From a phage: a stretch of 64,000 nt of DNA. Positions 1,692-18,779 of the stretch are shown here, in pieces. The position numbers were made by a program, and so were the translations under genes. A model generated the notes under the pieces. That model did no database searches. It was not told the DNA's origin and saw only the letters and a program-made list of their open reading frames with translations. Within the stretch, counting starts at the first letter, position 1, and the number at the start of each line of letters is the position of its first letter. The stretch is from the NCBI GenBank assembly GCA_012474735.1, contig GCA_012474735.1_4085.1; one strand, written 5' to 3'.

Positions 1692-1804
1692 TACTTTTTA
1701 TCAAATACTTTAAAATAGTTTTCAGTACTGAATACTTATATAATAGATACACTTATGCACCCTGTGGGTCAGTGAGTTATCTCTCAATGAATATATATTA
1801 GCAA

Positions 1805-1828
1805 AGGGACTGACCGGAGTCAATCCCT
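1805..1828 (-). terminator. intrinsic terminator hairpin
   Basis: AGGGACTGAC-CGGA-GTCAATCCCT inverted repeat with flanking T/A runs, downstream of 1842..2426. Confidence 0.5.
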
Positions 1829-1841
1829 TTTTTAATCTTTT

Positions 1842-2426
1842 TTATCGTGTTATAGTTACGGCTTTTACATCACGCTTTTTATAGTACTGATTCCAGATAT
1901 TGCGGGTTAAACCGTAATCAAGTACTTTAATAAGTCCATTACGATCCTGGCCGATATTCTGTTTTCTGATATCTCTTATCGTTAGTGTTGATAATGTATC
2001 ATCGACGTGTTGTAGTGCATCAGCAAAGCGGTGCTGGCGTTCAATGGCATTACGTTTAATATTGTACTTTAATTCGTTGCACGCGTTAACGTGCTTCACA
2101 CTGCCTTTACTTGCAGTACTCAACCGATCCATAACGATAAACATATTATCAGGATCGCATAAATGCATATGCACCTTTGCAAAGTACTGTTTCAATTGAG
2201 GGCGGTCATAGTCTAAAAAATTCCATACCTTACATTCAGTTTCATTTTGTTCTACACCCGCATCACAATTGGCGACCTTAATCACTAACCGATCATTTAA
2301 AGCGAATACGATACGGGAAGAACCCGCCCCGATGATCTCCAGGCCAGCTAACCGACAAGCTGAAAGGATCTCTTTGTTGGTTTCCATTTCTGACAGTGTA
2401 CGGATGAATTTAGTATAATTACGCAT
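1842..2426 (-). CDS. protein kinase-like protein
   Basis: VIKVA, DIRKQN and LDYG motifs resemble kinase beta3-Lys, catalytic loop and DFG; start set at ATG 2426 after AAGGAG. Confidence 0.45.
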   Translation of the reverse strand: MRNYTKFIRTLSEMETNKEILSACRLAGLEIIGAGSSRIVFALNDRLVIKVANCDAGVEQNETECKVWNFLDYDRPQLKQYFAKVHMHLCDPDNMFIVMDRLSTASKGSVKHVNACNELKYNIKRNAIERQHRFADALQHVDDTLSTLTIRDIRKQNIGQDRNGLIKVLDYGLTRNIWNQYYKKRDVKAVTITR

Positions 2427-2457
2427 TGCATGTTCTCCTTGAGTTAATGAAACTATC

Positions 2458-2700
2458 TTACAGTACTTTACTATCAATGGCAACCACTTTTTTCACACTA
2501 ACCGCGTGAATCACTTCCTTAGTGTTTTTAGTACTGAATACTTTCGCTGTTCCTTGTTCTACTGCAATGCGATAACGACCGTTAACATCAACCATATTAA
2601 TAAAGTCCGGTGTACTAAACCGAGTAGTACGGCATTTCAGTACTGTTAACAATTCCACCAGCGATGTAGTTTCTTTGATACGTTTTTCTAAAGTAATCAT
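2458..2700 (-). CDS. hypothetical protein (80 aa)
   Basis: ORF; TTGACA-containing promoter-like sequence upstream. Confidence 0.5.
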   Translation of the reverse strand: MITLEKRIKETTSLVELLTVLKCRTTRFSTPDFINMVDVNGRYRIAVEQGTAKVFSTKNTKEVIHAVSVKKVVAIDSKVL

Positions 2701-3030: not shown

Positions 3031-3285
3031 TCAACGTGATATTAGTTTTATTTTCTTATTATATTGTTGGTGTTCATATAGGTTTATCTTTCCTGTGTTC
3101 TCAATTACTATTCTGTTGTTAGTGTCTACATCGATTACACGCAGTTTTCCGTTGCTTAACTTCCTTGGTAATAGGTTACCATTAATAAACTCATTAGCAA
3201 GCTGTACGGCCTTTGTGATGATTCTCTGTGGTGCTTTATAGTGTACCCGCAAGATATTATCTTTAGATAGTTGTACCTTAATCAT
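3031..3285 (-). CDS. hypothetical protein (84 aa)
   Basis: ORF; SD AGGA. Confidence 0.5.
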   Translation of the reverse strand: MIKVQLSKDNILRVHYKAPQRIITKAVQLANEFINGNLLPRKLSNGKLRVIDVDTNNRIVIENTGKINLYEHQQYNKKIKLISR

Positions 3286-4554: not shown

Positions 4555-4699
4555 ATTATACTCGTTTACTTTCTATTGTCAAACTATTTTATCAGGGGAG
4601 TTTTTCGTATGTCTTACTCCTGGACTACTTAACGGGGTTACTTGTTTCGTTCCCCGTCCTGATGTAAAACATTATACTTGATTCTAAGTACAATGCAAG
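4555..4699 (-). promoter_or_regulatory. tandem sigma70-like promoters flanking a conserved structured leader
   Basis: P-a rc TTGACA-N16-TATAAT 4555..4582; P-b 4671..4699; 70-nt leader 4590..4660; near-identical copy at 15068..15214. Confidence 0.55.
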
Positions 4700-4807
4700 T
4701 ACTTTTTAAAAATAGTTTTCAGTACTTGATAGTACTAGCCACCAGCAAACAATAGATACATTTATGCACCCTGTGGGCTAGATTGTTTCAATGCATATAT
4801 AATAGCA

Positions 4808-4831
4808 AAGGGACTGACCGGAGTCAATCCC
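4808..4831 (-). terminator. terminator-like hairpin
   Basis: same AGGGACTGACCGGAGTCAATCCCT element as 1805..1828. Confidence 0.45.
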
Positions 4832-5271: not shown

Positions 5272-5484
5272 TTAATCTTTCAGCCAATGATCTTGAATGA
5301 ATTTTTCACAGAATCCCTGTTTCATGGATTCTAACAGGCGTTCACGGTGAGCGTTGGCAAATTGCTCAGTACTATGCGTTACGCCAGGCTGATAACGTGA
5401 TACCCCATCCGGTCCGATGTATTGTACATCCCACGGTTTTTCGTTAGTATCAGACCATTTACGAACGATTAGTTGACCTTGCAT
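5272..5484 (-). CDS. hypothetical protein (70 aa)
   Basis: ORF; promoter unit 5502..5561. Confidence 0.55.
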   Translation of the reverse strand: MQGQLIVRKWSDTNEKPWDVQYIGPDGVSRYQPGVTHSTEQFANAHRERLLESMKQGFCEKFIQDHWLKD

Positions 5485-6185: not shown

Positions 6186-6542
6186 CTATGATAAAATCAT
6201 GATAGGATATTCACTATCGATCAGTACTTCGAATCCGAAACCTTCGTACCATTCTTTAAGATTGAAGGCGTTATCTTCTCCTGTATCGCATTCTAAAATG
6301 ATACAATCTGAATCATCGGCGGCATCAATAAAGGCATTCATTAATTCGTTACCTTCACCATTGCCCCGACTATCAGGATCAACATAAAGAGAATCAATAA
6401 ACGCTACACGGTCATAATCAAGATCCGGTGCAATGATTCCACGTTTAACAAACCAGTACTGCAATTGTGCTACTTTGCCCTGTACTTGATAGCCAGTGAT
6501 CTCGCCATTGTCAGTAGTACGCGTGATATGTTGTATTCCCAT
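6186..6542 (-). CDS. possible GNAT-family acetyltransferase
   Basis: RGNGEGNELMNAFI resembles GNAT motif A (R/Q-x-x-G-x-G/A). Confidence 0.35.
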   Translation of the reverse strand: MGIQHITRTTDNGEITGYQVQGKVAQLQYWFVKRGIIAPDLDYDRVAFIDSLYVDPDSRGNGEGNELMNAFIDAADDSDCIILECDTGEDNAFNLKEWYEGFGFEVLIDSEYPIMILS

Positions 6543-6605: not shown

Positions 6606-6863
6606 TTATCTCATAGATCTATGCCAACAATTACGCGGGGGACGTTTAAAAGTACTATCATGATCCTCCTGGCAAGTTATGCAGTACTTACATCCCTTAA
6701 CGGCCTGGCGTCGTTTCTCAGGGATTATATCGCCGCAGTCGAGGCAATGTATCAGTGATTCTATTTGTGCGTTAATTTGCTTTCTAGCGTGGTTAACGGC
6801 GGCCTGAATCACTGCGTTAATCTCGTCTTGCTCGGCCCCATCTTTCGCGAATCCAACAGCCAT
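6606..6863 (-). CDS. TraR/DksA-family C4 zinc-finger protein
   Basis: CLDCGDIIPEKRR...CKYCITCQ matches TraR/DksA CxxC-N17-CxxC finger. Confidence 0.55.
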   Translation of the reverse strand: MAVGFAKDGAEQDEINAVIQAAVNHARKQINAQIESLIHCLDCGDIIPEKRRQAVKGCKYCITCQEDHDSTFKRPPRNCWHRSMR

Positions 6864-7194
6864 TATTTTAACCTCATTATAAAAATACTATAGTACTGTA
6901 ATGCGACAATAATATTACTTGTTCTTACTTTTTCCAATCCACATGATACCACATATTCATCCCCATATGTGCGAAACGATACACCATGAAAATTTTTATA
7001 CACTTGCACTACTAATCATAACCTTTCGTCTAACCAACTGCATAGAATTATACTACTTTACGCAAATTGATCAAGTATTGATCAGATCATTTTTTGATCA
7101 ATATTATACAGTTACATTTGTGCACCCTATGGGTTAGTGACGTTCTCGTCTTGATGTAAGTATTATGCCAGTACTGGATGATATTGTCAATAGA

Positions 7195-8734: not shown

Positions 8735-8848
8735 ACTTTTTATCAAATACTTTAAAATAGTTTTCAGTACTCAAACATTATACAATAGATACACTCCTGC
8801 ACCCTGTGGGCTAGTGAGCTATCTCTCAATGATTATATAATAACAAAA

Positions 8849-8868
8849 TGGCTGACCGAAGTCAACCA
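8849..8868 (-). terminator. terminator hairpin (possibly bidirectional)
   Basis: TGGCTGAC-CGAA-GTCAACCA with T-runs on both sides. Confidence 0.5.
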
Positions 8869-12669: not shown

Positions 12670-12690
12670 TTTCTTATTCCTTAGTTACCA

Positions 12691-12745
12691 GGGGAACCGC
12701 TCCCCCTATGCAAAACATTATACGCGTTTAAAAACTAATTGCAAG
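12691..12745 (-). promoter_or_regulatory. sigma70-like early promoter plus leader hairpin
   Basis: rc CTTGCA 12740..12745, TATAAT 12717..12722. Confidence 0.6.
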
Positions 12746-12781
12746 TATTTTAATAAAAAGTATTTGAAAAATAGTTGTTGA

Positions 12782-12810
12782 CAAGTGCATCCAGTACTGG
12801 CATAATTACT
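12782..12810 (+). promoter_or_regulatory. plus-strand promoter-like element
   Basis: TTGACA-N17-CATAAT, spacer contains CCAGTACTGG; followed at about +25 by CCCACAGGGTGCA motif. Confidence 0.4.
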
Positions 12811-12888
12811 ACATAAAGACGATACAGTCACTAACCCACAGGGTGCATAGATCCGTCTATTAAATGATTCAGTACTGAAAAAGTAACG

Positions 12889-12909
12889 GGGAGTTATTAT
12901 CTCCCCGCG
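12889..12909 (-). terminator. terminator hairpin
   Basis: CGGGGAG-N7-CTCCCCG with T-rich flank, after stop of 12913..13134. Confidence 0.5.
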
Positions 12910-12912
12910 TTG

Positions 12913-13134
12913 TTATTTGGTAAGGTATAAACAGAAGTCACCTTTATTTGCTACGCCGCCAGTGTAACGCGATGAATAGTTAGAAATATCTTGTACTTCT
13001 GCTATTACCAGTGTATCATCATTCATTTCGTCGCAGAAGCAAACGGCTGGATCTTTTACGCCGATATTGTCGGCATGTTCCCGCATAGATTTAACCAGTG
13101 CTTCCAGTTGAGAAAGAGTAGTGATATTAGCCAT
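12913..13134 (-). CDS. hypothetical protein (73 aa)
   Basis: trimmed to MANITTLS start. Confidence 0.5.
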   Translation of the reverse strand: MANITTLSQLEALVKSMREHADNIGVKDPAVCFCDEMNDDTLVIAEVQDISNYSSRYTGGVANKGDFCLYLTK

Positions 13135-13153
13135 TGTATTTTCCTCATTACCA

Positions 13154-13213
13154 GGGAGAACCATTTCTCCCCTCTATGTAAACTATTATACAGTACTGAA
13201 AACTAATTGCAAG
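13154..13213 (-). promoter_or_regulatory. sigma70-like early promoter plus leader hairpin
   Basis: rc TTGCAA 13207..13212, TATAAT 13185..13190. Confidence 0.6.
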
Positions 13214-13219
13214 TACTTT

Positions 13220-13408
13220 TTAATTAAATTCCATAAAATCATTCTCAACGTGCACTACAATCTGATTATTTTTAAAGTCCGCAGCGAACTCAATGCAATC
13301 ATATACTGCTTTTTCTGTTACCATGCTATGAGTACCAATCGGATTAATAGGGGATTGAATTGTTTCAATCTCGTTACCTTGTTCATTAACAATTAAAATA
13401 TTAAACAT
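13220..13408 (-). CDS. hypothetical protein (62 aa)
   Basis: ORF. Confidence 0.5.
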   Translation of the reverse strand: MFNILIVNEQGNEIETIQSPINPIGTHSMVTEKAVYDCIEFAADFKNNQIVVHVENDFMEFN

Positions 13409-13456
13409 CGCTGTTACTCCTGATAGTGTTTACCTGATATAAAGTATTATACGCCT

Positions 13457-13705
13457 TTATTGCTTAGTGTCCAGTACTTTTAAAACATAATCAAAGACAC
13501 CACGCACATCATTGATCATCGCCTGGCGGTTAGCAGGTAACGCATCAGGATCGCCACTATCCCAGGCATTGATAAAACTCCCCAAATCATGATAGATTTT
13601 ATTCTGTAAGCCGATTAACTGTAATTCTTTTTCTTCAAGCTCTTTGATGCGGTCGATTAAATCACTCATTAGATAATCCTCAGTACTTAACTGTAAGATC
13701 CGCAA
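13457..13705 (-). CDS. hypothetical protein (82 aa)
   Basis: ORF; overlaps upstream gene end. Confidence 0.5.
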   Translation of the reverse strand: MRILQLSTEDYLMSDLIDRIKELEEKELQLIGLQNKIYHDLGSFINAWDSGDPDALPANRQAMINDVRGVFDYVLKVLDTKQ

Positions 13706-13971
13706 CGGTCGCAGTAGTGCCCGTCATCGTCATCGTCAACGAATTGACCGACGAAATGATCTACTTTCGCTTTCAGGTTATTATAATCGTTTTCTACTTC
13801 CTTTAAACGCTTCTGGTAGTATTCCAGGGCTTGTAAATACGCCGCCTCAGCAGTTTTCTCCCGCATAGCTAAATTCATTCCACGCGATTCATCATACAGC
13901 CAAAAACCATCGGTGCACTGGCTAATAGATAATGACTTGCTTAGTACTGTATAGTTAATTACTTTACCCAT
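13687..13971 (-). CDS. hypothetical protein (94 aa)
   Basis: ORF; promoter unit 13990..14050. Confidence 0.55.
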   Translation of the reverse strand: MGKVINYTVLSKSLSISQCTDGFWLYDESRGMNLAMREKTAEAAYLQALEYYQKRLKEVENDYNNLKAKVDHFVGQFVDDDDDGHYCDRCGSYS

Positions 13972-13989
13972 TAGATAATCCTCAGTAAA

Positions 13990-14050
13990 GGCGGGAACTA
14001 TTCCCCGCCTCGATATAAAGTATTATACGTTAATCTAACTACAATGCAAG
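13990..14050 (-). promoter_or_regulatory. sigma70-like early promoter plus leader hairpin
   Basis: rc CTTGCA 14045..14050, TATAAT 14022..14027; hairpin GGCGGGAA-N4-TCCCCGCC. Confidence 0.6.
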
Positions 14051-14063
14051 TACTTTTTAAATT

Positions 14064-14330
14064 TTATAATCCTTTTACTGCATCAGGTGCGACTACTCCA
14101 TCAATGTATTGAACATCGTTTTCAACTTCACGGGCGGCATCATTCAGCAGATCAAAATTAAATTCCATTTCTTCCAGATCATCGAAATCAGGCTCATAAC
14201 CATTAATTGTTGAATAAGTCCAAGTACCTTTTTCATAAGTTACGACACTTACATCAGGGAAGAAATCTTGCACATGATCCATCGCATCCCGAACCAATTG
14301 ATGTGCAGTTGTGATATTTAAAGTTTTCAT
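14064..14330 (-). CDS. hypothetical acidic protein (88 aa)
   Basis: ORF; promoter unit 14351..14411. Confidence 0.55.
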   Translation of the reverse strand: MKTLNITTAHQLVRDAMDHVQDFFPDVSVVTYEKGTWTYSTINGYEPDFDDLEEMEFNFDLLNDAAREVENDVQYIDGVVAPDAVKGL

Positions 14331-14350
14331 TTTGTTGCCCTTTTAGTGTG

Positions 14351-14411
14351 AGCGGGGAACCACTCCCCGCCTCGATGTAAAGTATTATACGCTTTTAAAC
14401 TTAGTTTGCAA
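14351..14411 (-). promoter_or_regulatory. sigma70-like early promoter plus leader hairpin
   Basis: rc CTTGCA 14406..14411, TATAAT 14383..14388; hairpin GCGGGGAA-N3-CTCCCCGC. Confidence 0.6.
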
Positions 14412-14423
14412 GTACTTTTTAAA

Positions 14424-15035
14424 TTAATATGCGATTGATTCTACTACGCCATCAATAACATTGAATTGATATTCGTTACCCTCAATCAGTGCCGTAATGT
14501 TTTCAGTAGTGAATTGATCCTCATATGCATTCTCTAAATCACGGTACAACTTGCGGGATAATTCACGAATAGTTTCAGTGAGTAGTTCCTCAAGCTCATT
14601 AACTAACGTTTCTTGTTTTGCGGTTAAATCAGTGTAAGCCGATTCAATGTACCCGCTTACAGTATTCTCATGCGAGTAGTGGGAGTGAGAACGCTTTACA
14701 CTCATCGCCAAATCATCTTCATTCAGCAAGTGACGGATTGAGCGATACTTAGTTAATGCTCTTACCTTGCGTAAAAACTTCACTGCGTCAACGTGGTCAG
14801 TACTGATTGATGCACCGTCACCCTGGGACCAAAAACCACTGAATTGTATTTCAGCGTCATTAATGCCATATTCCGGTAGTACTGTTTCTTTATAGTATTC
14901 AATTTCACTTTCAGAAAAATAATTGTCGTTTGAGTTTTTTTCACGTTCCCGAACCAGTTCGATAGCCGCCGCTTGTTGTTCTGCGTTCAGTTCAGAAAAA
15001 GCCATAACGAAAGTAGTAGTAGTGATAGTTTTCAT
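14424..15035 (-). CDS. hypothetical protein (203 aa)
   Basis: ORF behind tandem promoter/leader module. Confidence 0.55.
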   Translation of the reverse strand: MKTITTTTFVMAFSELNAEQQAAAIELVREREKNSNDNYFSESEIEYYKETVLPEYGINDAEIQFSGFWSQGDGASISTDHVDAVKFLRKVRALTKYRSIRHLLNEDDLAMSVKRSHSHYSHENTVSGYIESAYTDLTAKQETLVNELEELLTETIRELSRKLYRDLENAYEDQFTTENITALIEGNEYQFNVIDGVVESIAY

Positions 15036-15067
15036 TTTGTAACCCTCATTCAGTAGTTTATGTAAGT

Positions 15068-15214
15068 ATTATACGCTTTTAAAAACATTTGTCAAACTAT
15101 TTTATCAGGGGAGTTTTTCGTGTGCCTTACTCCTGGGCTACTTAACGGGGAGTTACTTATTTCGTTCCCCGTCCTGATGTAAAACATTATACGCCTTTAA
15201 ACATAGTTTGCAAG
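15068..15214 (-). promoter_or_regulatory. tandem promoters flanking structured leader (copy 2)
   Basis: near-identical to 4555..4699; P-a 15068..15095, leader 15103..15173, P-b 15186..15214. Confidence 0.55.
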
Positions 15215-15257
15215 TACTTTTTAAAAATAGTTTTCAGTACTGAATAGTAAAAAGGTA

Positions 15258-15286
15258 TTGACAGCACTATCCAGTACTGGCATAAT
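15258..15286 (+). promoter_or_regulatory. plus-strand promoter-like element
   Basis: TTGACA-N17-CATAAT; convergent with minus promoter 15392..15420. Confidence 0.4.
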
Positions 15287-15391
15287 ATACCCCATGACAA
15301 CAGCTAACCCACCGGGTGCACAATTGTAACTGTACTAAACTAATTTTTCTATAGATACACTTCCGCACCCTATGGGCCACGGCTTATCTGC

Positions 15392-15420
15392 CAATGAATA
15401 CATTATGCCAGTACTGACAT
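15392..15420 (-). promoter_or_regulatory. minus-strand promoter-like element
   Basis: rc TTGACT-N17-CATAAT; mirror of 15258..15286. Confidence 0.4.
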
Positions 15421-15460
15421 TTTAAGTCAATACCGGCAATTGTAAATATTTGTAAACTAC

Positions 15461-15691
15461 TTATACTGCAATCGCGTCCAGGCTATAATAATAATAAGTG
15501 CCGTATTGGTGTACTTTATTACCTTTTATTTCAGTACTGAATGAATCCGAACGGTTTGCATATGATGTTAATTTAAAGTACTTTGATTTGCTGATACGTT
15601 GCCATACACCACAGATCCGCTGTAAGTAAGTAGTTTTATTCGTGGTAGTATCTTTTACGGTTTTAACTTCAGTCATATACATATTAGTCAT
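15461..15691 (-). CDS. hypothetical protein (76 aa)
   Basis: ORF; promoter unit 15713..15772. Confidence 0.5.
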   Translation of the reverse strand: MTNMYMTEVKTVKDTTTNKTTYLQRICGVWQRISKSKYFKLTSYANRSDSFSTEIKGNKVHQYGTYYYYSLDAIAV

Positions 15692-15712
15692 TTTTATTAC
15701 TCCAGGTTATAG

Positions 15713-15772
15713 GCGGGAAGAGTTCCCGCTCTCGATGTAAAACATTATACGCCTTTAAACATAGTTTGCAAG
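15713..15772 (-). promoter_or_regulatory. sigma70-like early promoter plus leader hairpin
   Basis: rc CTTGCA 15767..15772, TATAAT 15744..15749; hairpin GCGGGAA-GAG-TTCCCGC. Confidence 0.6.
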
Positions 15773-15778
15773 TACTTT

Positions 15779-16044
15779 TTATTCAAGTACTGCAATCTTT
15801 TTAGTACGGTACACGGTCACGCGGTTGCCCTTTCGGTCGAGCTTTATTTCTACCACTCGACGCGATACACTATCGGGACTTTTTAAGGCCGCTAACCAGT
15901 ACTGTAATGATCTGGCGGTACTACGCTTTACAATGGCCCAACGTTTACCACGTTCCGATTGTACGCCCATATCTTTAAACGTTGCCCCGTCCTGGCGTGC
16001 GGCGATCCGAGCTTGTTCACGCGTCGCAAAATACTTAATATTCA
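15779..16044 (-). CDS. hypothetical protein, paralog of 3348..3743
   Basis: trimmed to MNIKYFATRE start; shared motifs. Confidence 0.6.
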
Positions 16045-16133
16045 TGCTGTTGCCCTTATCGTTGGTGTATGAATAAAACACTATTATAAAGTACTATCCC
16101 CGTGCAATAGTACTTTAAATAAATTCTATTCTA

Positions 16134-16373
16134 TTACATTCCAACCATTGCCGCACGGATCGCAGTAGTGCTATATTTGAATCCGTCCGGTGTTTTATCT
16201 TGTCCAGTCTGTTCTAAAAATAACATCATATGACGGGCCGCATCATTGCGATTAGTGCTATCGTTAATAAAGTCCTGGGCCAACCGGTATAATGATTCAT
16301 CGTTATTAATCCAAAGGCTTACATTCCAATGAGTTTTGTTTTTGTGACCTAAGAACATTTTTGATTTAGCCAT
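16134..16373 (-). CDS. hypothetical protein (79 aa)
   Basis: ORF; promoter unit 16394..16452. Confidence 0.55.
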   Translation of the reverse strand: MAKSKMFLGHKNKTHWNVSLWINNDESLYRLAQDFINDSTNRNDAARHMMLFLEQTGQDKTPDGFKYSTTAIRAAMVGM

Positions 16374-16393
16374 TTTTTAATCCTCTTATATAG

Positions 16394-16452
16394 TGGGGAA
16401 CTATTCCCCACCTGATAGAAAGTATTATACTTGTTTTAACTTAGTATGCAAG
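16394..16452 (-). promoter_or_regulatory. sigma70-like early promoter plus leader hairpin
   Basis: rc CTTGCA 16447..16452, TATAAT 16424..16429; hairpin GTGGGGAA-N3-TTCCCCAC. Confidence 0.6.
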
Positions 16453-16465
16453 TACTTTATTAAAC

Positions 16466-16828
16466 TTATTTGTAAATTTTGCCACTGTCAGCCCATACCA
16501 GGAAACGATGCATATTATCCCATGCATCTTGTTTTAAATTTAAACCGTGCAATTCCTCAGTAGTTGCCATCCCTGGTACTGGCTTACTACACACCGCGAA
16601 ATTTTCGCCCATGTACTGATAAACCATCGTTAAATCATTTGAGATCATTATATGGATCATTGAATCAAGCATCAAAGTAGCGGCGTATTGTTCACGCTTA
16701 AGCGGCAACATTGCAATAAGTTCCCGATAAGCTGCAATGTGAATTTTTACAGTTTCAGCCGGAAGACCTTTCATCTCTTCGCGGAAGTTTACCAGGTTAA
16801 GCATGATTTTAGTGATTTGAGTCGCCAT
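16466..16828 (-). CDS. hypothetical protein (120 aa)
   Basis: trimmed to MATQITKIM start. Confidence 0.5.
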   Translation of the reverse strand: MATQITKIMLNLVNFREEMKGLPAETVKIHIAAYRELIAMLPLKREQYAATLMLDSMIHIMISNDLTMVYQYMGENFAVCSKPVPGMATTEELHGLNLKQDAWDNMHRFLVWADSGKIYK

Positions 16829-16852
16829 CGTTTTAATCTCTCTTAATGTGTA

Positions 16853-16912
16853 GCGGGAAGTGTTCCCGCTCTCGATGTAAAACATTATACGCTTTTATCA
16901 GTACGGTGCAAG
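16853..16912 (-). promoter_or_regulatory. sigma70-like early promoter plus leader hairpin
   Basis: rc CTTGCA 16907..16912, TATAAT 16884..16889; hairpin GCGGGAA-GTG-TTCCCGC. Confidence 0.6.
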
Positions 16913-17191
16913 TACTTTCTACAAATACTTTTAAAATAGTTTTCTTTCTATATAGGGGAACTATTATTCAGTACTGCAACCATCCAGGGGAACTATCTTT
17001 CTATATAGGAGTACTATTATTCAGTACTGAATCAATCAACCAAATCACTACTACACCCCGTAAAACGGCCTCAGACGCATTCTAACGCATTAATACACCC
17101 AAGCTATACATTTGCACCATTCCAATCATTCCAGGGCTTTACAGGCCGTTTAAACGCGTTAAATTATTTTCAATTATTTTGTTTTTAGCTA

Positions 17192-17219
17192 TTGACTCAG
17201 TACTAAAAAAGCGTATAAT
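17192..17219 (+). promoter_or_regulatory. plus-strand promoter-like element
   Basis: TTGACT-N16-TATAAT followed by TACTACATAGACG...GATCCGTC, similar to region after 12810. Confidence 0.4.
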
Positions 17220-17406
17220 TACTACATAGACGCGAGAAAGCGGATACCCCAGGGGGTGGGAAGATCCGTCCAAAATTCAAGATATAAAAAAAGGATACAC
17301 TCCCGCACCCTAGCAGGTTAACGCACTTTCTCAGTACTGAATTATAGTACCATAGTCCGGCCCAGGATGGCAAGCAAATTAATTAAAACTTTTTTCATCC
17401 AGGGTA

Positions 17407-17434
17407 TTGCTTTATTTTTCCAGTACTGTATAAT
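17407..17434 (+). promoter_or_regulatory. plus-strand promoter-like element
   Basis: TTGCTT-N16-TATAAT followed by CCCACCGGGTGCA motif. Confidence 0.35.
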
Positions 17435-18779
17435 AGTTCCATCAAGTCGAGAAAGACTCAAGCCCACCGGGTGCATAGTTACGCCCAAAATTCAGTACTG
17501 AAAAAATTTTTAAAAATATCCGTCCAGGCCGTTGACATTGCCCCCAGTTTATAAGATAATGATTCCAGATTCAGAAAAATCTAACTCCAGATACTGCGGG
17601 GAAACTATCCCCACGCGGTAGGGGAACTATTGGAAAAAACAAAATAAAATTTTGATTTAGCCGTCTATACTTCCAGACGTGTAACCATCTAGCCGTTTAG
17701 CCGTCTAGATGGATAGCCATCTTTACTTCCAGACTTCTGGAGGGCTAGACATATCTACGCCCAAAATCCATCCAGGGTAACTACGCCCAAAATCCGTCAG
17801 TACTATACCATAGATCTATCTTTTGAAAGGGAGTATTCAGTACTGCCATCATAGCCCTCACTATGTTACCCTAGGAGGATGAAGACTATCATGTAGTACT
17901 GAATACTGTTAGAGGGAATCCACCAGCTTGTGCTGGTGGCATAATGCTTTAGATTAAAATCAGTACTGACACCATTCTGTTAATATCAGTACTGTTATTA
18001 CGATTTTCATATGAGGTTCAAAAAGATGTACCACCACAGGAGGAACTATCTTTTCTGTACTGTCTCACGACAGGAGGTAGAGTAAATGAATTGTTCGCAG
18101 CAACTCATCTCTCTATGTAGAACATTATACAGTACTGAATCATAATGTCAATAGCTTTCTTTCATTATTCAGTACTGATATTCTTGAGAACTACCCGACT
18201 ACAAACATCATTATATCCCACAAATCATAAACGTCCCAACGTAAATTTCAACTTTCGAAGATCCAACTTTTATTTCATAGGTACTCCAAAATTTTTAGGA
18301 TCGAGATTTAGGATGGAGTACTAACCAACTTTTTGCTGGAGCCTCAAGGGGTAATTGAATTTTACCCCGAAGGGTAAAGGGGTAATTGAAATTAAGGTGA
18401 AAGTAATAATTCAGTACTAATCATTGCGTGATTACTTTTGATTACATTTGATGTAATTTGAAAAATGGAAAAGGAGCTTGGAAACTACAAAGTACGGCAG
18501 ACTTCCTCTGCCTACTTAGTGGCATATCAGTACTGAATCCTTCCCTAGCATTCTTGAGCAATCTTGTCTATACTAATCAGTACTGAATCATATATAATCA
18601 TTCTGTGATTCTACGGTGCTCATATAAATGTTTATATATGATTACTTATGACTACCTATGATTACGGGGTTTAGCCTGGGGAGAATCCTAGTGATCGCAT
18701 TTGTCCAGGCTGAATTTTAACAATTCGCCTGTACATAAAGGTTGTTCACTAGGAGCTTCCCCTGTCTACTTGTGTTTAA

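What the first reader, a model, noticed from the sequence alone, without database searches (positions are those of the whole stretch)
12782..17480. Conserved 20-nt motif (TCACTAACCCACAGGGTGCA) in both orientations, with convergent promoter-like elements
The motif or its reverse complement occurs at about 1757, 4773, 7125, 8805, 12836, 15305, 15366, 17297 and 17462, always intergenic. In several copies it lies about 25-40 nt downstream of a plus-strand TTGACA-N17-CATAAT element (12782..12810, 15258..15286, 17192..17219, 17407..17434), which would transcribe against the minus-strand genes. At 15258..15420 two such promoter-motif units face each other 105 bp apart. This could mark small antisense RNAs, a regulator binding site, or a promoter for a different polymerase or sigma.
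Basis: seen in the sequence. Interest (0 to 1): 0.65.

Follow-up and report, generated by a model that had tools for sequence, protein, structure and literature searches.

The report
Repeated small structured RNA genes, jumbo phage
The repeated "motif" is the invariant core of ten copies of a roughly 50-base structured RNA, each with its own strong host-type promoter, packed into the terminal repeat of a giant E. coli phage; the RNA is conserved across related giant phages, appears undescribed, and its function is unknown.

Summary
The window comes from an Asteriusvirus-like jumbo phage (PBECO4/121Q/G17 group). The conserved part is the core CCCAYNGGGTGC plus a GTATCT tail, not the full 20-mer.

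A covariance model finds 9 copies (E 2e-15 to 3e-3), and a tenth is degenerate. All lie at 1.7-17.5 kb, inside the direct terminal repeat, which ends near 18,514. Every copy, on either strand, sits 7 nt downstream of a near-consensus sigma-70 promoter on its own strand.

The unit is an RNA:
- a 5' hairpin P1 with heavy compensatory covariation;
- an invariant core that can fold two mutually exclusive ways (P2 CCC/GGG, or P3 GGGUGC/GUAUCU, rich in G-U).

The family occurs 10-14 times per genome in RaK2, GAP32, Yersinia and other Rak2-like phages. These include convergent pairs with an exactly conserved 57-nt offset. It is absent from Rfam, E. coli genomes and the searched literature.

Best reading: a new family of early, host-RNAP-made small RNAs or leaders. 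Their action does not depend on neighbouring genes, and they probably bind a conserved factor. A cis attenuator or antiterminator role is the main rival. A DNA operator or an alternative-polymerase promoter is not supported.

The parts
1741..1823 (-). Unit U1. Promoter: -35 TTGACT 1823-1818, TGn plus -10 TAATAT 1800-1795. Predicted start: A at about 1788. RNA motif: 1790-1741 (P1 UGAG/CUCA, core CCCACAGGGUGC, tail GUAUCU). The -35 lies inside the terminator-like hairpin of the upstream gene. Runs in the same direction as the genes.
   Evidence: CM 59.5 bits, E 2e-15; promoter coordinates; sequence
4750..4827 (-). Unit U2. Promoter: TTGACT-17-TATTAT, embedded in hairpin 4834-4807. Motif: 4796-4750. 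A Chi site follows at 4746-4739.
   Evidence: CM 39.9 bits; terminator-like hairpin; promoter; Chi
7106..7190 (-). Unit U3. Promoter: TTGACA-17-CATAAT with TG (11 of 12 consensus positions) and CCAGTACTGG in the spacer. Motif: 7155-7106. The region has no counterpart in phage G17.
   Evidence: CM 31.1 bits; promoter; indel
8783..8865 (-). Unit U4. Promoter: TTGACT-17-TATTAT, embedded in hairpin 8872-8845. Motif: 8832-8783.
   Evidence: CM 55.1 bits
12778..12918 (+). Unit U5. Promoter: 12778-12806 (TTGACA-17-CATAAT, TG). Motif: 12813-12862. It is followed by the bidirectional terminator 12887-12907 plus a T-rich tail. The predicted product is a free-standing RNA of about 100 nt that ends before the next ORF.
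   Evidence: CM 43.1 bits; promoter and terminator; fold z -2.3
15258..15335 (+). Unit U6, left member of convergent pair 1. Promoter: 15258-15286. Short leader with no clear P1. Core: CCCACCGGGUGC at 15308.
   Evidence: CM 20.3 bits, E 0.002
15349..15430 (-). Unit U7, right member of convergent pair 1. Promoter: 15430-15402. P1: GGC/GCC. The core starts 57 nt from that of U6.
   Evidence: CM 45 bits
17192..17275 (+). Unit U8, left member of convergent pair 2. Promoter: TTGACT-16-TATAAT. P1: CGC/GCG. Degenerate core: CCCCAGGGGGUGG.
   Evidence: CM 19.6 bits, E 0.003
17285..17373 (-). Unit U9, right member of pair 2. Weaker promoter: TTGCCA-18-TACTAT. Core variant: CCUGCUAGGGUGC. Here P3 (AGGGUGC/GUAUCCU, 17311-17292) is followed by U7, which makes an intrinsic terminator. 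The predicted RNA is about 50 nt.
   Evidence: Terminator scan hit; sequence; not reached by the CM at E<=10
17407..17490 (+). Unit U10. Promoter: TTGCTT-16-TATAAT. P1: AGUC/GACU. Tail variant: ACGCCC, which pairs with GGGUG.
   Evidence: CM 51 bits; fold z -2.4 with P1+P3 as the minimum-energy structure
18505..18520 (.). Boundary of the direct terminal repeat (a physical genome end in relatives). All ten units lie on the repeat side.
   Evidence: The G17 repeat is 20,668 bp and its end maps to about 18,511. Position 1 of the E9.1 record maps to 18,516.

Best explanation
Each copy is a small, self-contained transcription unit.

Anatomy:
- A near-consensus, mostly TG-extended sigma-70 promoter starts an RNA at an A seven bases after the -10.
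- The first ~50 nt form a conserved structured module. It has a 5'-terminal hairpin P1 (4-5 bp, sequence free but always paired, purine-rich 6-7 nt loop), a short linker (CUAR), and an invariant core.
- The core can fold in two mutually exclusive ways: P2 (RCCC-N3/4-GGGU) or P3 (GGGUGC(R)-N4-(U)GUAUCU, 5-7 bp, half of them G-U).

Shown: the copies, their promoters, the P1 covariation, the pairing-preserving variation in P3, restriction to the terminal repeat, and conservation across genera of Rak2-like jumbo phages.

Inferred:
- Host RNA polymerase makes these RNAs immediately after DNA entry, from about 10 units present twice per virion DNA.
- P1 protects the 5' end.
- The invariant bistable core is the working part and is recognised by a conserved macromolecule.
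- The units occur in either orientation, in convergent pairs, and with no downstream ORF. I therefore take them to act as free small RNAs or leaders whose function does not depend on neighbouring genes, most likely as a binding site or decoy for a conserved host or phage protein (possibly RNA polymerase itself).
For: Copies and statistics.

Promoter on the motif's own strand, with a constant 7-nt distance from -10 to start, in all ten units.

P1:
- 93% of cells are paired, with 19-28 double (compensatory) changes per pair across 55 distinct sequences and 32 different stem sequences. Slid controls give 15-52% paired and a covariation score of 0.01-0.06, against 0.48 observed.
- The four top mutual-information column pairs are exactly the P1 pairs.
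- RNAalifold predicts P1 by itself on an ungapped, unfitted alignment.

P3:
- 92% paired. Tail positions vary almost only U<->C or A<->G, which keeps pairs with G and U.
- RNAalifold predicts it on the unfitted alignment.
- In U9 it is followed by U7 and scores as an intrinsic terminator.

P2:
- Predicted by RNAalifold on the 62-sequence alignment.
- The loop varies in sequence and in length (3 or 4 nt). CCU/AGG compensations occur in L005:4610 and in U9.
- P2 and P3 are near-isoenergetic.

Strand specificity: the G-U pairs exist on the promoter-sense strand only.

Selection: among orthologues in three close relatives, changes fall in the two loops and not in the stems.

Conservation: found in RaK2, GAP32, fHe-Yen9-03/04, CBB, Serratia BF, Erwinia and Salmonella jumbo phages.

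Stand-alone copies have a promoter plus a terminator: U5, U9, RaK2 8216 and 15284.

Precedent: two highly expressed ncRNAs in the terminal repeat of the related phage PA5oct (PMC7318152).
Against: - No expression data exist for any of these phages, so starts, 3' ends and abundance are predictions.
- Most gene-codirectional copies lack a terminator. They would read into the next promoter and gene, which fits a leader better than a discrete sRNA.
- Single-sequence folding energies are unremarkable (z -0.4 to -2.4).
- P2 never truly covaries because CCC/GGG is invariant.
- The P3 evidence consists of one-sided (wobble) changes, which are also transitions, the commonest mutation type.
- The large alignment was fitted to the model, which leans pair counts towards it.
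- No partner was identified. Pfam finds no RNA-binding domain among 40 repeat-encoded ORFs.
- There is no significant complementarity to E. coli rRNA or to three tRNAs.
Confidence: 0.5

Rival explanations
1. Cis-acting leader switch (attenuator, or nut/put-like antiterminator). The nascent module acts on the polymerase that made it. P3 would act as a pause or terminator hairpin and P2 as its competitor. Alternatively, P1 plus the core would load a factor that changes read-through of the many terminators in the repeat.
For: The module is always at the very 5' end of the transcript. P2 and P3 share the GGG and are near-isoenergetic. P3 plus a U-tract is an intrinsic terminator in U9, and a U-run also follows the tail in GAP32 17326. 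Four or five units sit upstream of genes in a region dense in terminators. P1 loops (GAGAAA, GCGAAA, AGAUAA, AGAACAA) resemble the GNRA-like loops of boxB hairpins (my own knowledge).
Against: Most units have no U-tract after P3. About a third point away from or against genes, or face each other, where read-through control has no target. Each downstream gene has its own promoter. BoxA-like sequences are at chance level, with none in the units. No N-like protein was identified.
Confidence: 0.25
2. Repeated promoter cassettes without an RNA function of their own. These would be PeSL-like mobile or recombinogenic elements that shuffle genes in the hyperplastic terminal repeat, with the conserved sequence kept by gene conversion.
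For: The region is mosaic between relatives. U3 lies in an indel relative to G17. Tails and P3 loops swap between paralogues among close relatives. In U1, U2 and U4 the promoter is fused to a terminator hairpin, as in T4-type PeSLs.
Against: Gene conversion cannot explain an invariant core across genera whose flanks share no nucleotide similarity. It also cannot explain compensatory changes that keep P1 paired across 32 different stem sequences, or the exactly conserved 57-nt offset of convergent pairs with unrelated spacer sequence.
Confidence: 0.1
3. Double-stranded DNA site. The motif would be an operator for a dimeric phage or host protein (ACCC-N3-GGGT dyad) placed just downstream of early promoters, or a recognition site linked to the genome end.
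For: CCC-N3-GGG is a small dyad with a free centre. The sites are confined to the terminal repeat.
Against: The conserved TGC and tail are on one side only. 3-nt and 4-nt spacers coexist in one genome, fHe-Yen9-03. G-U pairs and P1 covariation make no sense for duplex DNA.
Confidence: 0.05
4. Translated minigene, like the lambda bar minigenes. GGGUG would be the Shine-Dalgarno, followed 5 nt later by AUG/GUG/UUG, then UAU-CUA and a stop. This would sequester a rare tRNA or ribosomes.
For: NUG occupies the right place in 32 of 55 distinct units. U56 is 95% conserved. A stop at codon 4 occurs in 16 of 55. CUA is a rare codon in E. coli (my own knowledge).
Against: 23 of 55 units lack a start codon (11 have AUC). 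Stops are no commoner than UUA/UUG at codon 4 (16 against 18). The 'Tyr' codon varies to CGC, CGU, UGC, UGU and CAU, which keeps pairing with GGGUGC but not the amino acid.
Confidence: 0.05

Closest known systems
PeSL (promoter-early stem-loop) cassettes of T4-type phages (PMC2839356, PMC4122927)
   Same: Both have strong sigma-70-like early promoters combined with a GC-rich stem-loop, repeated many times in a hyperplastic region of small orphan genes, and both are involved in indels. The ordinary gene promoters of this window, and the hairpin-embedded promoters of U1, U2 and U4, fit this picture.
   Different: A PeSL ends in a Shine-Dalgarno and the start codon of an ORF, and has no conserved transcribed motif. 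The units here have no ORF. They carry a ~50-nt RNA module with a covarying hairpin and a core that is invariant across genera.
Lambdoid nut sites (boxA + boxB) and HK022 put RNAs
   Same: All are promoter-proximal elements in early transcripts. Each combines a small hairpin bearing a purine-rich GNRA-like loop with an invariant sequence, in a terminator-rich early region. Invariance across hosts would fit binding to conserved host machinery.
   Different: There is no boxA consensus and no identified N-like protein. The units also occur against genes and in convergent pairs, and the core is bistable rather than a linear box. The comparison with put rests on memory only.
ncRNA001 and ncRNA002 in the terminal repeat of Pseudomonas jumbo phage PA5oct (PMC7318152)
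   Same: Both are non-coding RNAs from the long terminal repeat of a related jumbo phage. The PA5oct RNAs are highly expressed through infection and transcription depends on host RNA polymerase.
   Different: The PA5oct RNAs are 236 and 451 nt and single-copy. They show no sequence or model similarity.
Terminator/antiterminator expression platforms (attenuators, riboswitch platforms)
   Same: Both have two mutually exclusive hairpins sharing one strand, and in U9 one of them works as a terminator stem.
   Different: Most copies have no U-tract, and no aptamer or leader peptide is evident. Many copies have nothing downstream to regulate.

Membership tests
Any Rfam 15 family | Covariance-model match at or near the gathering score | tested here: not met
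   There were no hits at gathering over the whole window. At E<=10 on 12700-17700 there were only three weak hits, none overlapping a unit.
tRNA / tmRNA | Cloverleaf detected by ARAGORN | tested here: not met
   0 genes in the window
T4-type PeSL cassette | Strong sigma-70-like early promoter | tested here: met
   9-12 of 12 consensus positions, mostly with TG
T4-type PeSL cassette | GC-rich stem-loop (terminator) within or next to the promoter | tested here: inconclusive
   Present in U1, U2 and U4, where the -35 lies inside the hairpin. Absent in the other seven units.
T4-type PeSL cassette | Ends in a Shine-Dalgarno and the start codon of a flanked ORF | tested here: not met
   No ORF follows. 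The next gene has its own promoter 60-80 nt further on.
Lambdoid nut site | boxA consensus (YGCUCUUWA) next to the hairpin | tested here: not met
   52 near-matches against 49 expected, none inside a unit
Lambdoid nut site | boxB-type hairpin with a GNRA-like loop | tested here: inconclusive
   P1 has 4-5 bp and loops GAGAAA, GCGAAA, AGAUAA and AGAACAA. Similarity to boxB loops is judged from memory.
Lambdoid nut site | Cognate N-type antiterminator protein | not tested
   Pfam on 40 repeat-encoded ORFs showed only GNAT, DksA/TraR zinc finger, ParE-like and DUF domains. N proteins are small and easily missed.
Intrinsic-terminator attenuator | Terminator hairpin directly followed by a U-tract, with a competing alternative helix | tested here: inconclusive
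   The competing helices P2 and P3 are present in all units. In the window a U-tract follows only in U9, and in a few copies in relatives.
Free-standing bacterial-type sRNA gene | Own promoter and own Rho-independent terminator | tested here: inconclusive
   All units have a promoter. Only U5 and U9 have a terminator, as do the antisense-oriented single units in RaK2.
Free-standing bacterial-type sRNA gene | Detected transcript of defined size | not testable with these tools
   No transcriptome of any Rak2-like enterobacterial phage was found.
RNA anti-CRISPR (solitary CRISPR-repeat mimic) | Close similarity to a host CRISPR repeat | tested here: not met
   The 36-nt core plus tail has no blastn match (E<=10) in 5,426 complete E. 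coli genomes.
Lambda bar-type minigene | Shine-Dalgarno, start codon, 1-3 codons and a stop, conserved as a reading frame | tested here: not met
   A start codon is present in 32 of 55 units and a stop at codon 4 in 16 of 55. Substitutions keep pairing, not coding.
Type I toxin-antitoxin with convergent RNAs | Small toxin ORF on one of the two overlapping RNAs | tested here: not met
   There is no ORF between the convergent promoters.
Dyad-symmetric DNA operator | Symmetric half-sites at a fixed spacing | tested here: not met
   The conserved flank is one-sided. 3-nt and 4-nt spacers coexist in one genome.

The most novel reading that the evidence does not exclude
These units are a new class of jumbo-phage early RNA. 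It would be a multicopy, promoter-coupled, bistable ~50-nt RNA expressed from the terminal repeat within the first minutes of infection. Its invariant core would capture or reprogramme a conserved host factor (for example RNA polymerase, a nuclease or a defence sensor). The fixed-geometry convergent pairs would be a distinct functional module, such as collision-defined RNA ends or a double-stranded RNA product.
Probability: 0.3. Interest if true: 0.8.

Novelty: new variant of a known kind. Interest (0 to 1): 0.62.

Why it matters
Rak2-like jumbo phages (Asteriusvirus, Alcyoneusvirus, Mimasvirus, Eneladusvirus and others) are being collected as therapy candidates, yet their 20-kb terminal repeats are annotated as strings of hypothetical small genes.

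This work shows that about a tenth of the intergenic slots in that repeat hold a conserved structured RNA unit instead. It has strong comparative support and its own host-type promoter.

If expressed as predicted, it would be among the first and most abundant products of infection, and so a plausible host-takeover or anti-defence RNA. The family is small, sharply defined and easy to test by Northern blot, probing, pulldown and in vitro transcription. Current annotations either ignore it or cover it with spurious 30-aa ORFs.

Tried and rejected
- Known RNA classes. Rfam at gathering and at E<=10, and ARAGORN, returned nothing.
- PA5oct ncRNAs. They are not related in sequence or by the model.
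- Host copy or host mimic. There is no match in E. coli genomes. An exact-pattern scan of 185,579 species genomes gave 71 single hits in unrelated taxa; I estimate about 140 expected by chance for 17 specified bases in 596 Gb. None of them matches the covariance model.
- Base-pairing to host stable RNAs. Duplex energies against 16S, 23S, 5S and three tRNAs are not better than shuffles (z between -1.8 and +1.2).
- Minigene reading. Rejected as a family feature.
- boxA. At chance level.
- Protein partner in the repeat. Pfam finds no RNA-binding domain.
- Further helices. A mutual-information scan found none beyond P1. A proposed pairing of the P1 loop AGAUA with the tail UAUCU does not hold where the loops differ.
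- Resemblance to the type I-F CRISPR repeat and to ToxI. Noticed by eye from memory. Not pursued beyond, because the similar flank (TCACTG) belongs to the variable P1 and linker.
- Literature. Searches for the motif strings and for transcriptomes of these phages found nothing relevant.

Full report
**What the window is.** The region 12.7-17.6 kb is 94-97% identical to Escherichia jumbo phages of the PBECO4/121Q/G17 group (Asteriusvirus, about 350-385 kb).
- The first 18.5 kb carries small minus-strand genes. Transcription and GC skew switch at about 18 kb.
- In G17 the first 351 bases of the record recur at 350,150, so its direct terminal repeat is 20,668 bp. Its inner end maps to window position about 18,511.
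- The E9.1 record starts at window 18,516.
- The studied region is therefore the terminal repeat, present at both ends of the virion DNA.

**Checking the observation.**
- The exact 20-mer occurs once, with three more copies at one mismatch.
- The conserved core is CCCAYNGGGTGC: 8 exact copies against 0.49 expected.
- After orienting all copies, conservation runs further 3': GGGTGC, five variable purine-rich bases, T, then GTATCT and AT.
- Every copy, whichever strand it is on, is preceded on its own strand by a sigma-70-type promoter. The -35 is TTGAC(A/T), the spacer is 16-18 nt, most have TG, and the -10 is CATAAT, TATTAT or TATAAT.
- A C-A step lies exactly 7 nt after the -10.
- The same promoter type also drives ordinary genes at 10492-10464 and 7983-7955. 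It is therefore the phage's normal early promoter, not a special one.

**Relatives.**
- A 59-nt unit finds 61 phage records: Asteriusviruses plus Klebsiella RaK2, K64-1 and Muenster, Cronobacter GAP32, Yersinia fHe-Yen9-03/04, Serratia BF, Erwinia pEa_SNUABM and Salmonella 7t3.
- In these distant genera only about 30-36 nt of core and tail align.
- In one record the hit lies in an annotated 'Direct Terminal Repeats' feature, and in another in a predicted terminal repeat.
- 30-40 kb fetched from RaK2, GAP32 and fHe-Yen9-03 each contain 10-14 units clustered within about 20 kb of small early genes.
- An exact-pattern scan of IMG/VR hits only contigs of 109-378 kb. In RaK2 the six exact hits all fall in that one cluster.

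**Structure.** I built a covariance model from ten ungapped seeds.
- It finds 62 units in the window and five relatives and 43 more in IMG/VR loci.
- It finds none in the PA5oct repeat segment, and none in the 71 bacterial loci that share the bare string.
- In the window, with filters off, nine hits score 19.6-59.5 bits and the next best scores 11.

P1, the 5' hairpin:
- 93% of cells are paired.
- Every one of its four pairs shows 19-28 double changes.
- 32 different stem sequences occur (UGAG/CUCA, GACG/CGUC, AGUC/GACU, GCCA/UGGC, UCCA/UGGA and others).
- Sliding the partner by 1-3 columns drops pairing to 15-52% and the covariation score from 0.48 to 0.06 or below.
- The four highest mutual-information column pairs in the alignment are the P1 pairs.
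- RNAalifold predicts P1 on the ungapped seed alignment, which was not fitted to any model.
- P1 loops are purine-rich hexa- or heptaloops: GAGAAA, AGAUAA, GCGAAA, AGAACAA.

The core:
- CCC and GGG are invariant. The 3-4 nt between them vary in sequence and length.
- The flanking R...U forms A-U or G-U in equal numbers. This is hairpin P2, which RNAalifold predicts on the large alignment.
- P2 has only two compensated variants (CCU/AGG).
- The same GGGUGC is also complementary to the tail, with wobble pairs.
- Tail position 58 is U45/C10. Position 59 is A42/G13. Position 60 is U41/C7. Position 61 is C54. Position 62 is U43/C11.
- In the same alignment A/G51 pairs with U56.
- This helix, P3, is 92% paired against 30-58% when slid. 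RNAalifold chooses it on the unfitted alignment.
- P2 and P3 share GGG, so they exclude each other.
- Forced-fold energies differ by 1-4 kcal/mol in most units, and by 6.6 in U5. Across 55 sequences the minimum-energy fold is P2 in 27, P3 in 16 and neither in 12.

Further points:
- The many G-U pairs exist only on the promoter-sense strand, so the structure belongs to the transcript.
- Among orthologous units of the window, E9.1 and G17, differences concentrate in the P2 loop and the P3 loop and spare the stems.
- Single-sequence energies are modest. The case rests on comparison, not thermodynamics.

**Arrangement.** Units occupy the slot between one gene's terminator and the next gene's promoter, in either orientation.
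- In U1, U2 and U4 the -35 lies inside the upstream terminator hairpin. This composite terminator/promoter resembles the PeSLs of T4-type phages (PMC2839356, PMC4122927).
- Codirectional units have no terminator and would read into the next promoter.
- Units pointing the other way end at the gene's bidirectional terminator: U5 (about 100 nt), and RaK2 8216 and 15284.
- In U9 the P3 hairpin followed by U7 is itself a terminator.
- About a third of the units in each genome point against the genes.
- Each genome has 2-3 convergent pairs. In 7 of 10 pairs examined, including the E9.1 orthologue of window pair 1, the two cores start exactly 57 nt apart although the spacer sequences are unrelated. 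This holds for window 15308/15365, its E9.1 and G17 orthologues, three pairs in GAP32 and one in fHe-Yen9-03.
- AGTACT follows the tail within 40 nt in 31 of 57 units, against 25% at random positions. This hexamer is promoter-associated throughout the region, so the link is weak.

**What it is not.**
- It matches no Rfam family and no tRNA.
- It has no E. coli counterpart.
- It has no boxA.
- It contains no toxin ORF.
- It has no consistent reading frame.
- It shows no significant complementarity to rRNA or the tRNAs tested.
- It is not a symmetric DNA site: the flank is one-sided, and 3-nt and 4-nt spacers coexist in one genome.
- The repeat's ORFs show no RNA-binding domain.
- The papers on RaK2, CBB and PA5oct, and string searches, do not mention the motif.
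- PA5oct does show that related phages express abundant ncRNAs from the terminal repeat.

**Interpretation.**

Shown:
- a multicopy, promoter-coupled, structured RNA module;
- purifying selection on its stems;
- confinement to the terminal repeat;
- conservation across at least five genera.

Inferred: it is made early by host RNA polymerase.

Mechanism. Orientation independence, the convergent pairs and the ORF-less stand-alone copies argue that the module's job does not depend on the neighbouring gene. Invariance of the core across hosts and genera argues for recognition by a conserved macromolecule. I therefore favour free small RNAs or leaders acting as a binding site or decoy (about 0.4-0.5, counting the RNA nature as near-certain). 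A cis attenuator or antiterminator follows at about 0.25, supported by the bistable core and by U9. Recombination-only cassettes, a DNA operator and a minigene are each unlikely.

**Verdict.** The finding is a previously undescribed RNA family of jumbo phages with unknown function.

Noticed in passing
window, whole length; dense at 16,900-18,600: The 8-bp palindrome CAGTACTG occurs 58 times against about 1 expected. It lies in the spacer of the TG-extended early promoters (CCAGTACTGGCATAAT). AGTACT abuts the -35 of gene promoters (AAAAGTACTTGCAA). The palindrome also often follows the RNA units. It could be the site of a transcription factor or another DNA-binding protein.
   Followed up: partly
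window 1240, 2655, 4739, 6007, 7469, 11187, 11249, 17920, 17932, 44883, 61490: The Chi sequence GCTGGTGG occurs 11 times against 0.52 expected, 9 of them in the terminal repeat and mostly on the minus strand. By my own knowledge of Chi polarity, that orientation would act on RecBCD entering from the low-coordinate DNA end. There are two inverted pairs, one being CCACCAGCttgtGCTGGTGG at 17920-17939. One Chi directly follows unit U2.
   Followed up: partly
window about 18,505-18,520: This is the inner boundary of the direct terminal repeat and the deposited genome end of relatives: the G17 repeat is 20,668 bp and E9.1 record position 1 maps here. It lies in a 1.9-kb stretch (16.9-18.8 kb) with only two short plus-strand ORFs in the mechanical list; the orthologous G17 stretch has no annotated CDS. 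The stretch is full of repeats, such as ACGCCCAAAAT(T/C)C and GCCGTCTA/TAGCCGTTTAGCCGTCTAGATGG.
   Followed up: partly
L003 (RaK2) about 4,590-4,620 and 5,435-5,470; L005 (fHe-Yen9-03) about 340-360: In the convergent pairs with longer spacing, a palindrome sits between the two units: AATGAGAATGATAATGATTCTCATT. By eye it matches about 16 of 19 positions of the Fur box consensus GATAATGATAATCATTATC. No such site exists in the window.
   Followed up: partly
window 12,680-16,900, minus strand, upstream of most small genes: Each small gene has its own TTGCAA-N16-TATAAT promoter, followed by a GC-rich 5'-UTR hairpin (for example GCGGGGAACCACTCCCCGC) just before the ribosome-binding site. This is a PeSL-like repeated cassette architecture.
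   Followed up: partly
window 3034-3285 (-), 6189-6542 (-), 6609-6863 (-), 1845-2483 (-): The few recognisable domains among the repeat's small ORFs are a ParE-like toxin domain, a GNAT acetyltransferase, a DksA/TraR C4 zinc finger and a weak protein-kinase-like match.
   Followed up: no
L001 20,381-25,172 and 25,276-36,601 (E9.1); corresponds to window about 18.8-33 kb: Just outside the repeat, the relatives carry an array of about 25 tandem genes of roughly 60 aa each. These are followed by about 9 tandem paralogues annotated 'regulator of chromosome condensation' (RCC1-like), each with its own terminator in G17.
   Followed up: no
L001 3636-3737, 6617-6709, 10665-10778, 16706-16852 (E9.1 annotation): Some deposited annotations place 30-48-aa 'hypothetical protein' CDSs over the RNA units. 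G17 and most other records leave these stretches unannotated. The CDS calls are probably spurious.
   Followed up: no
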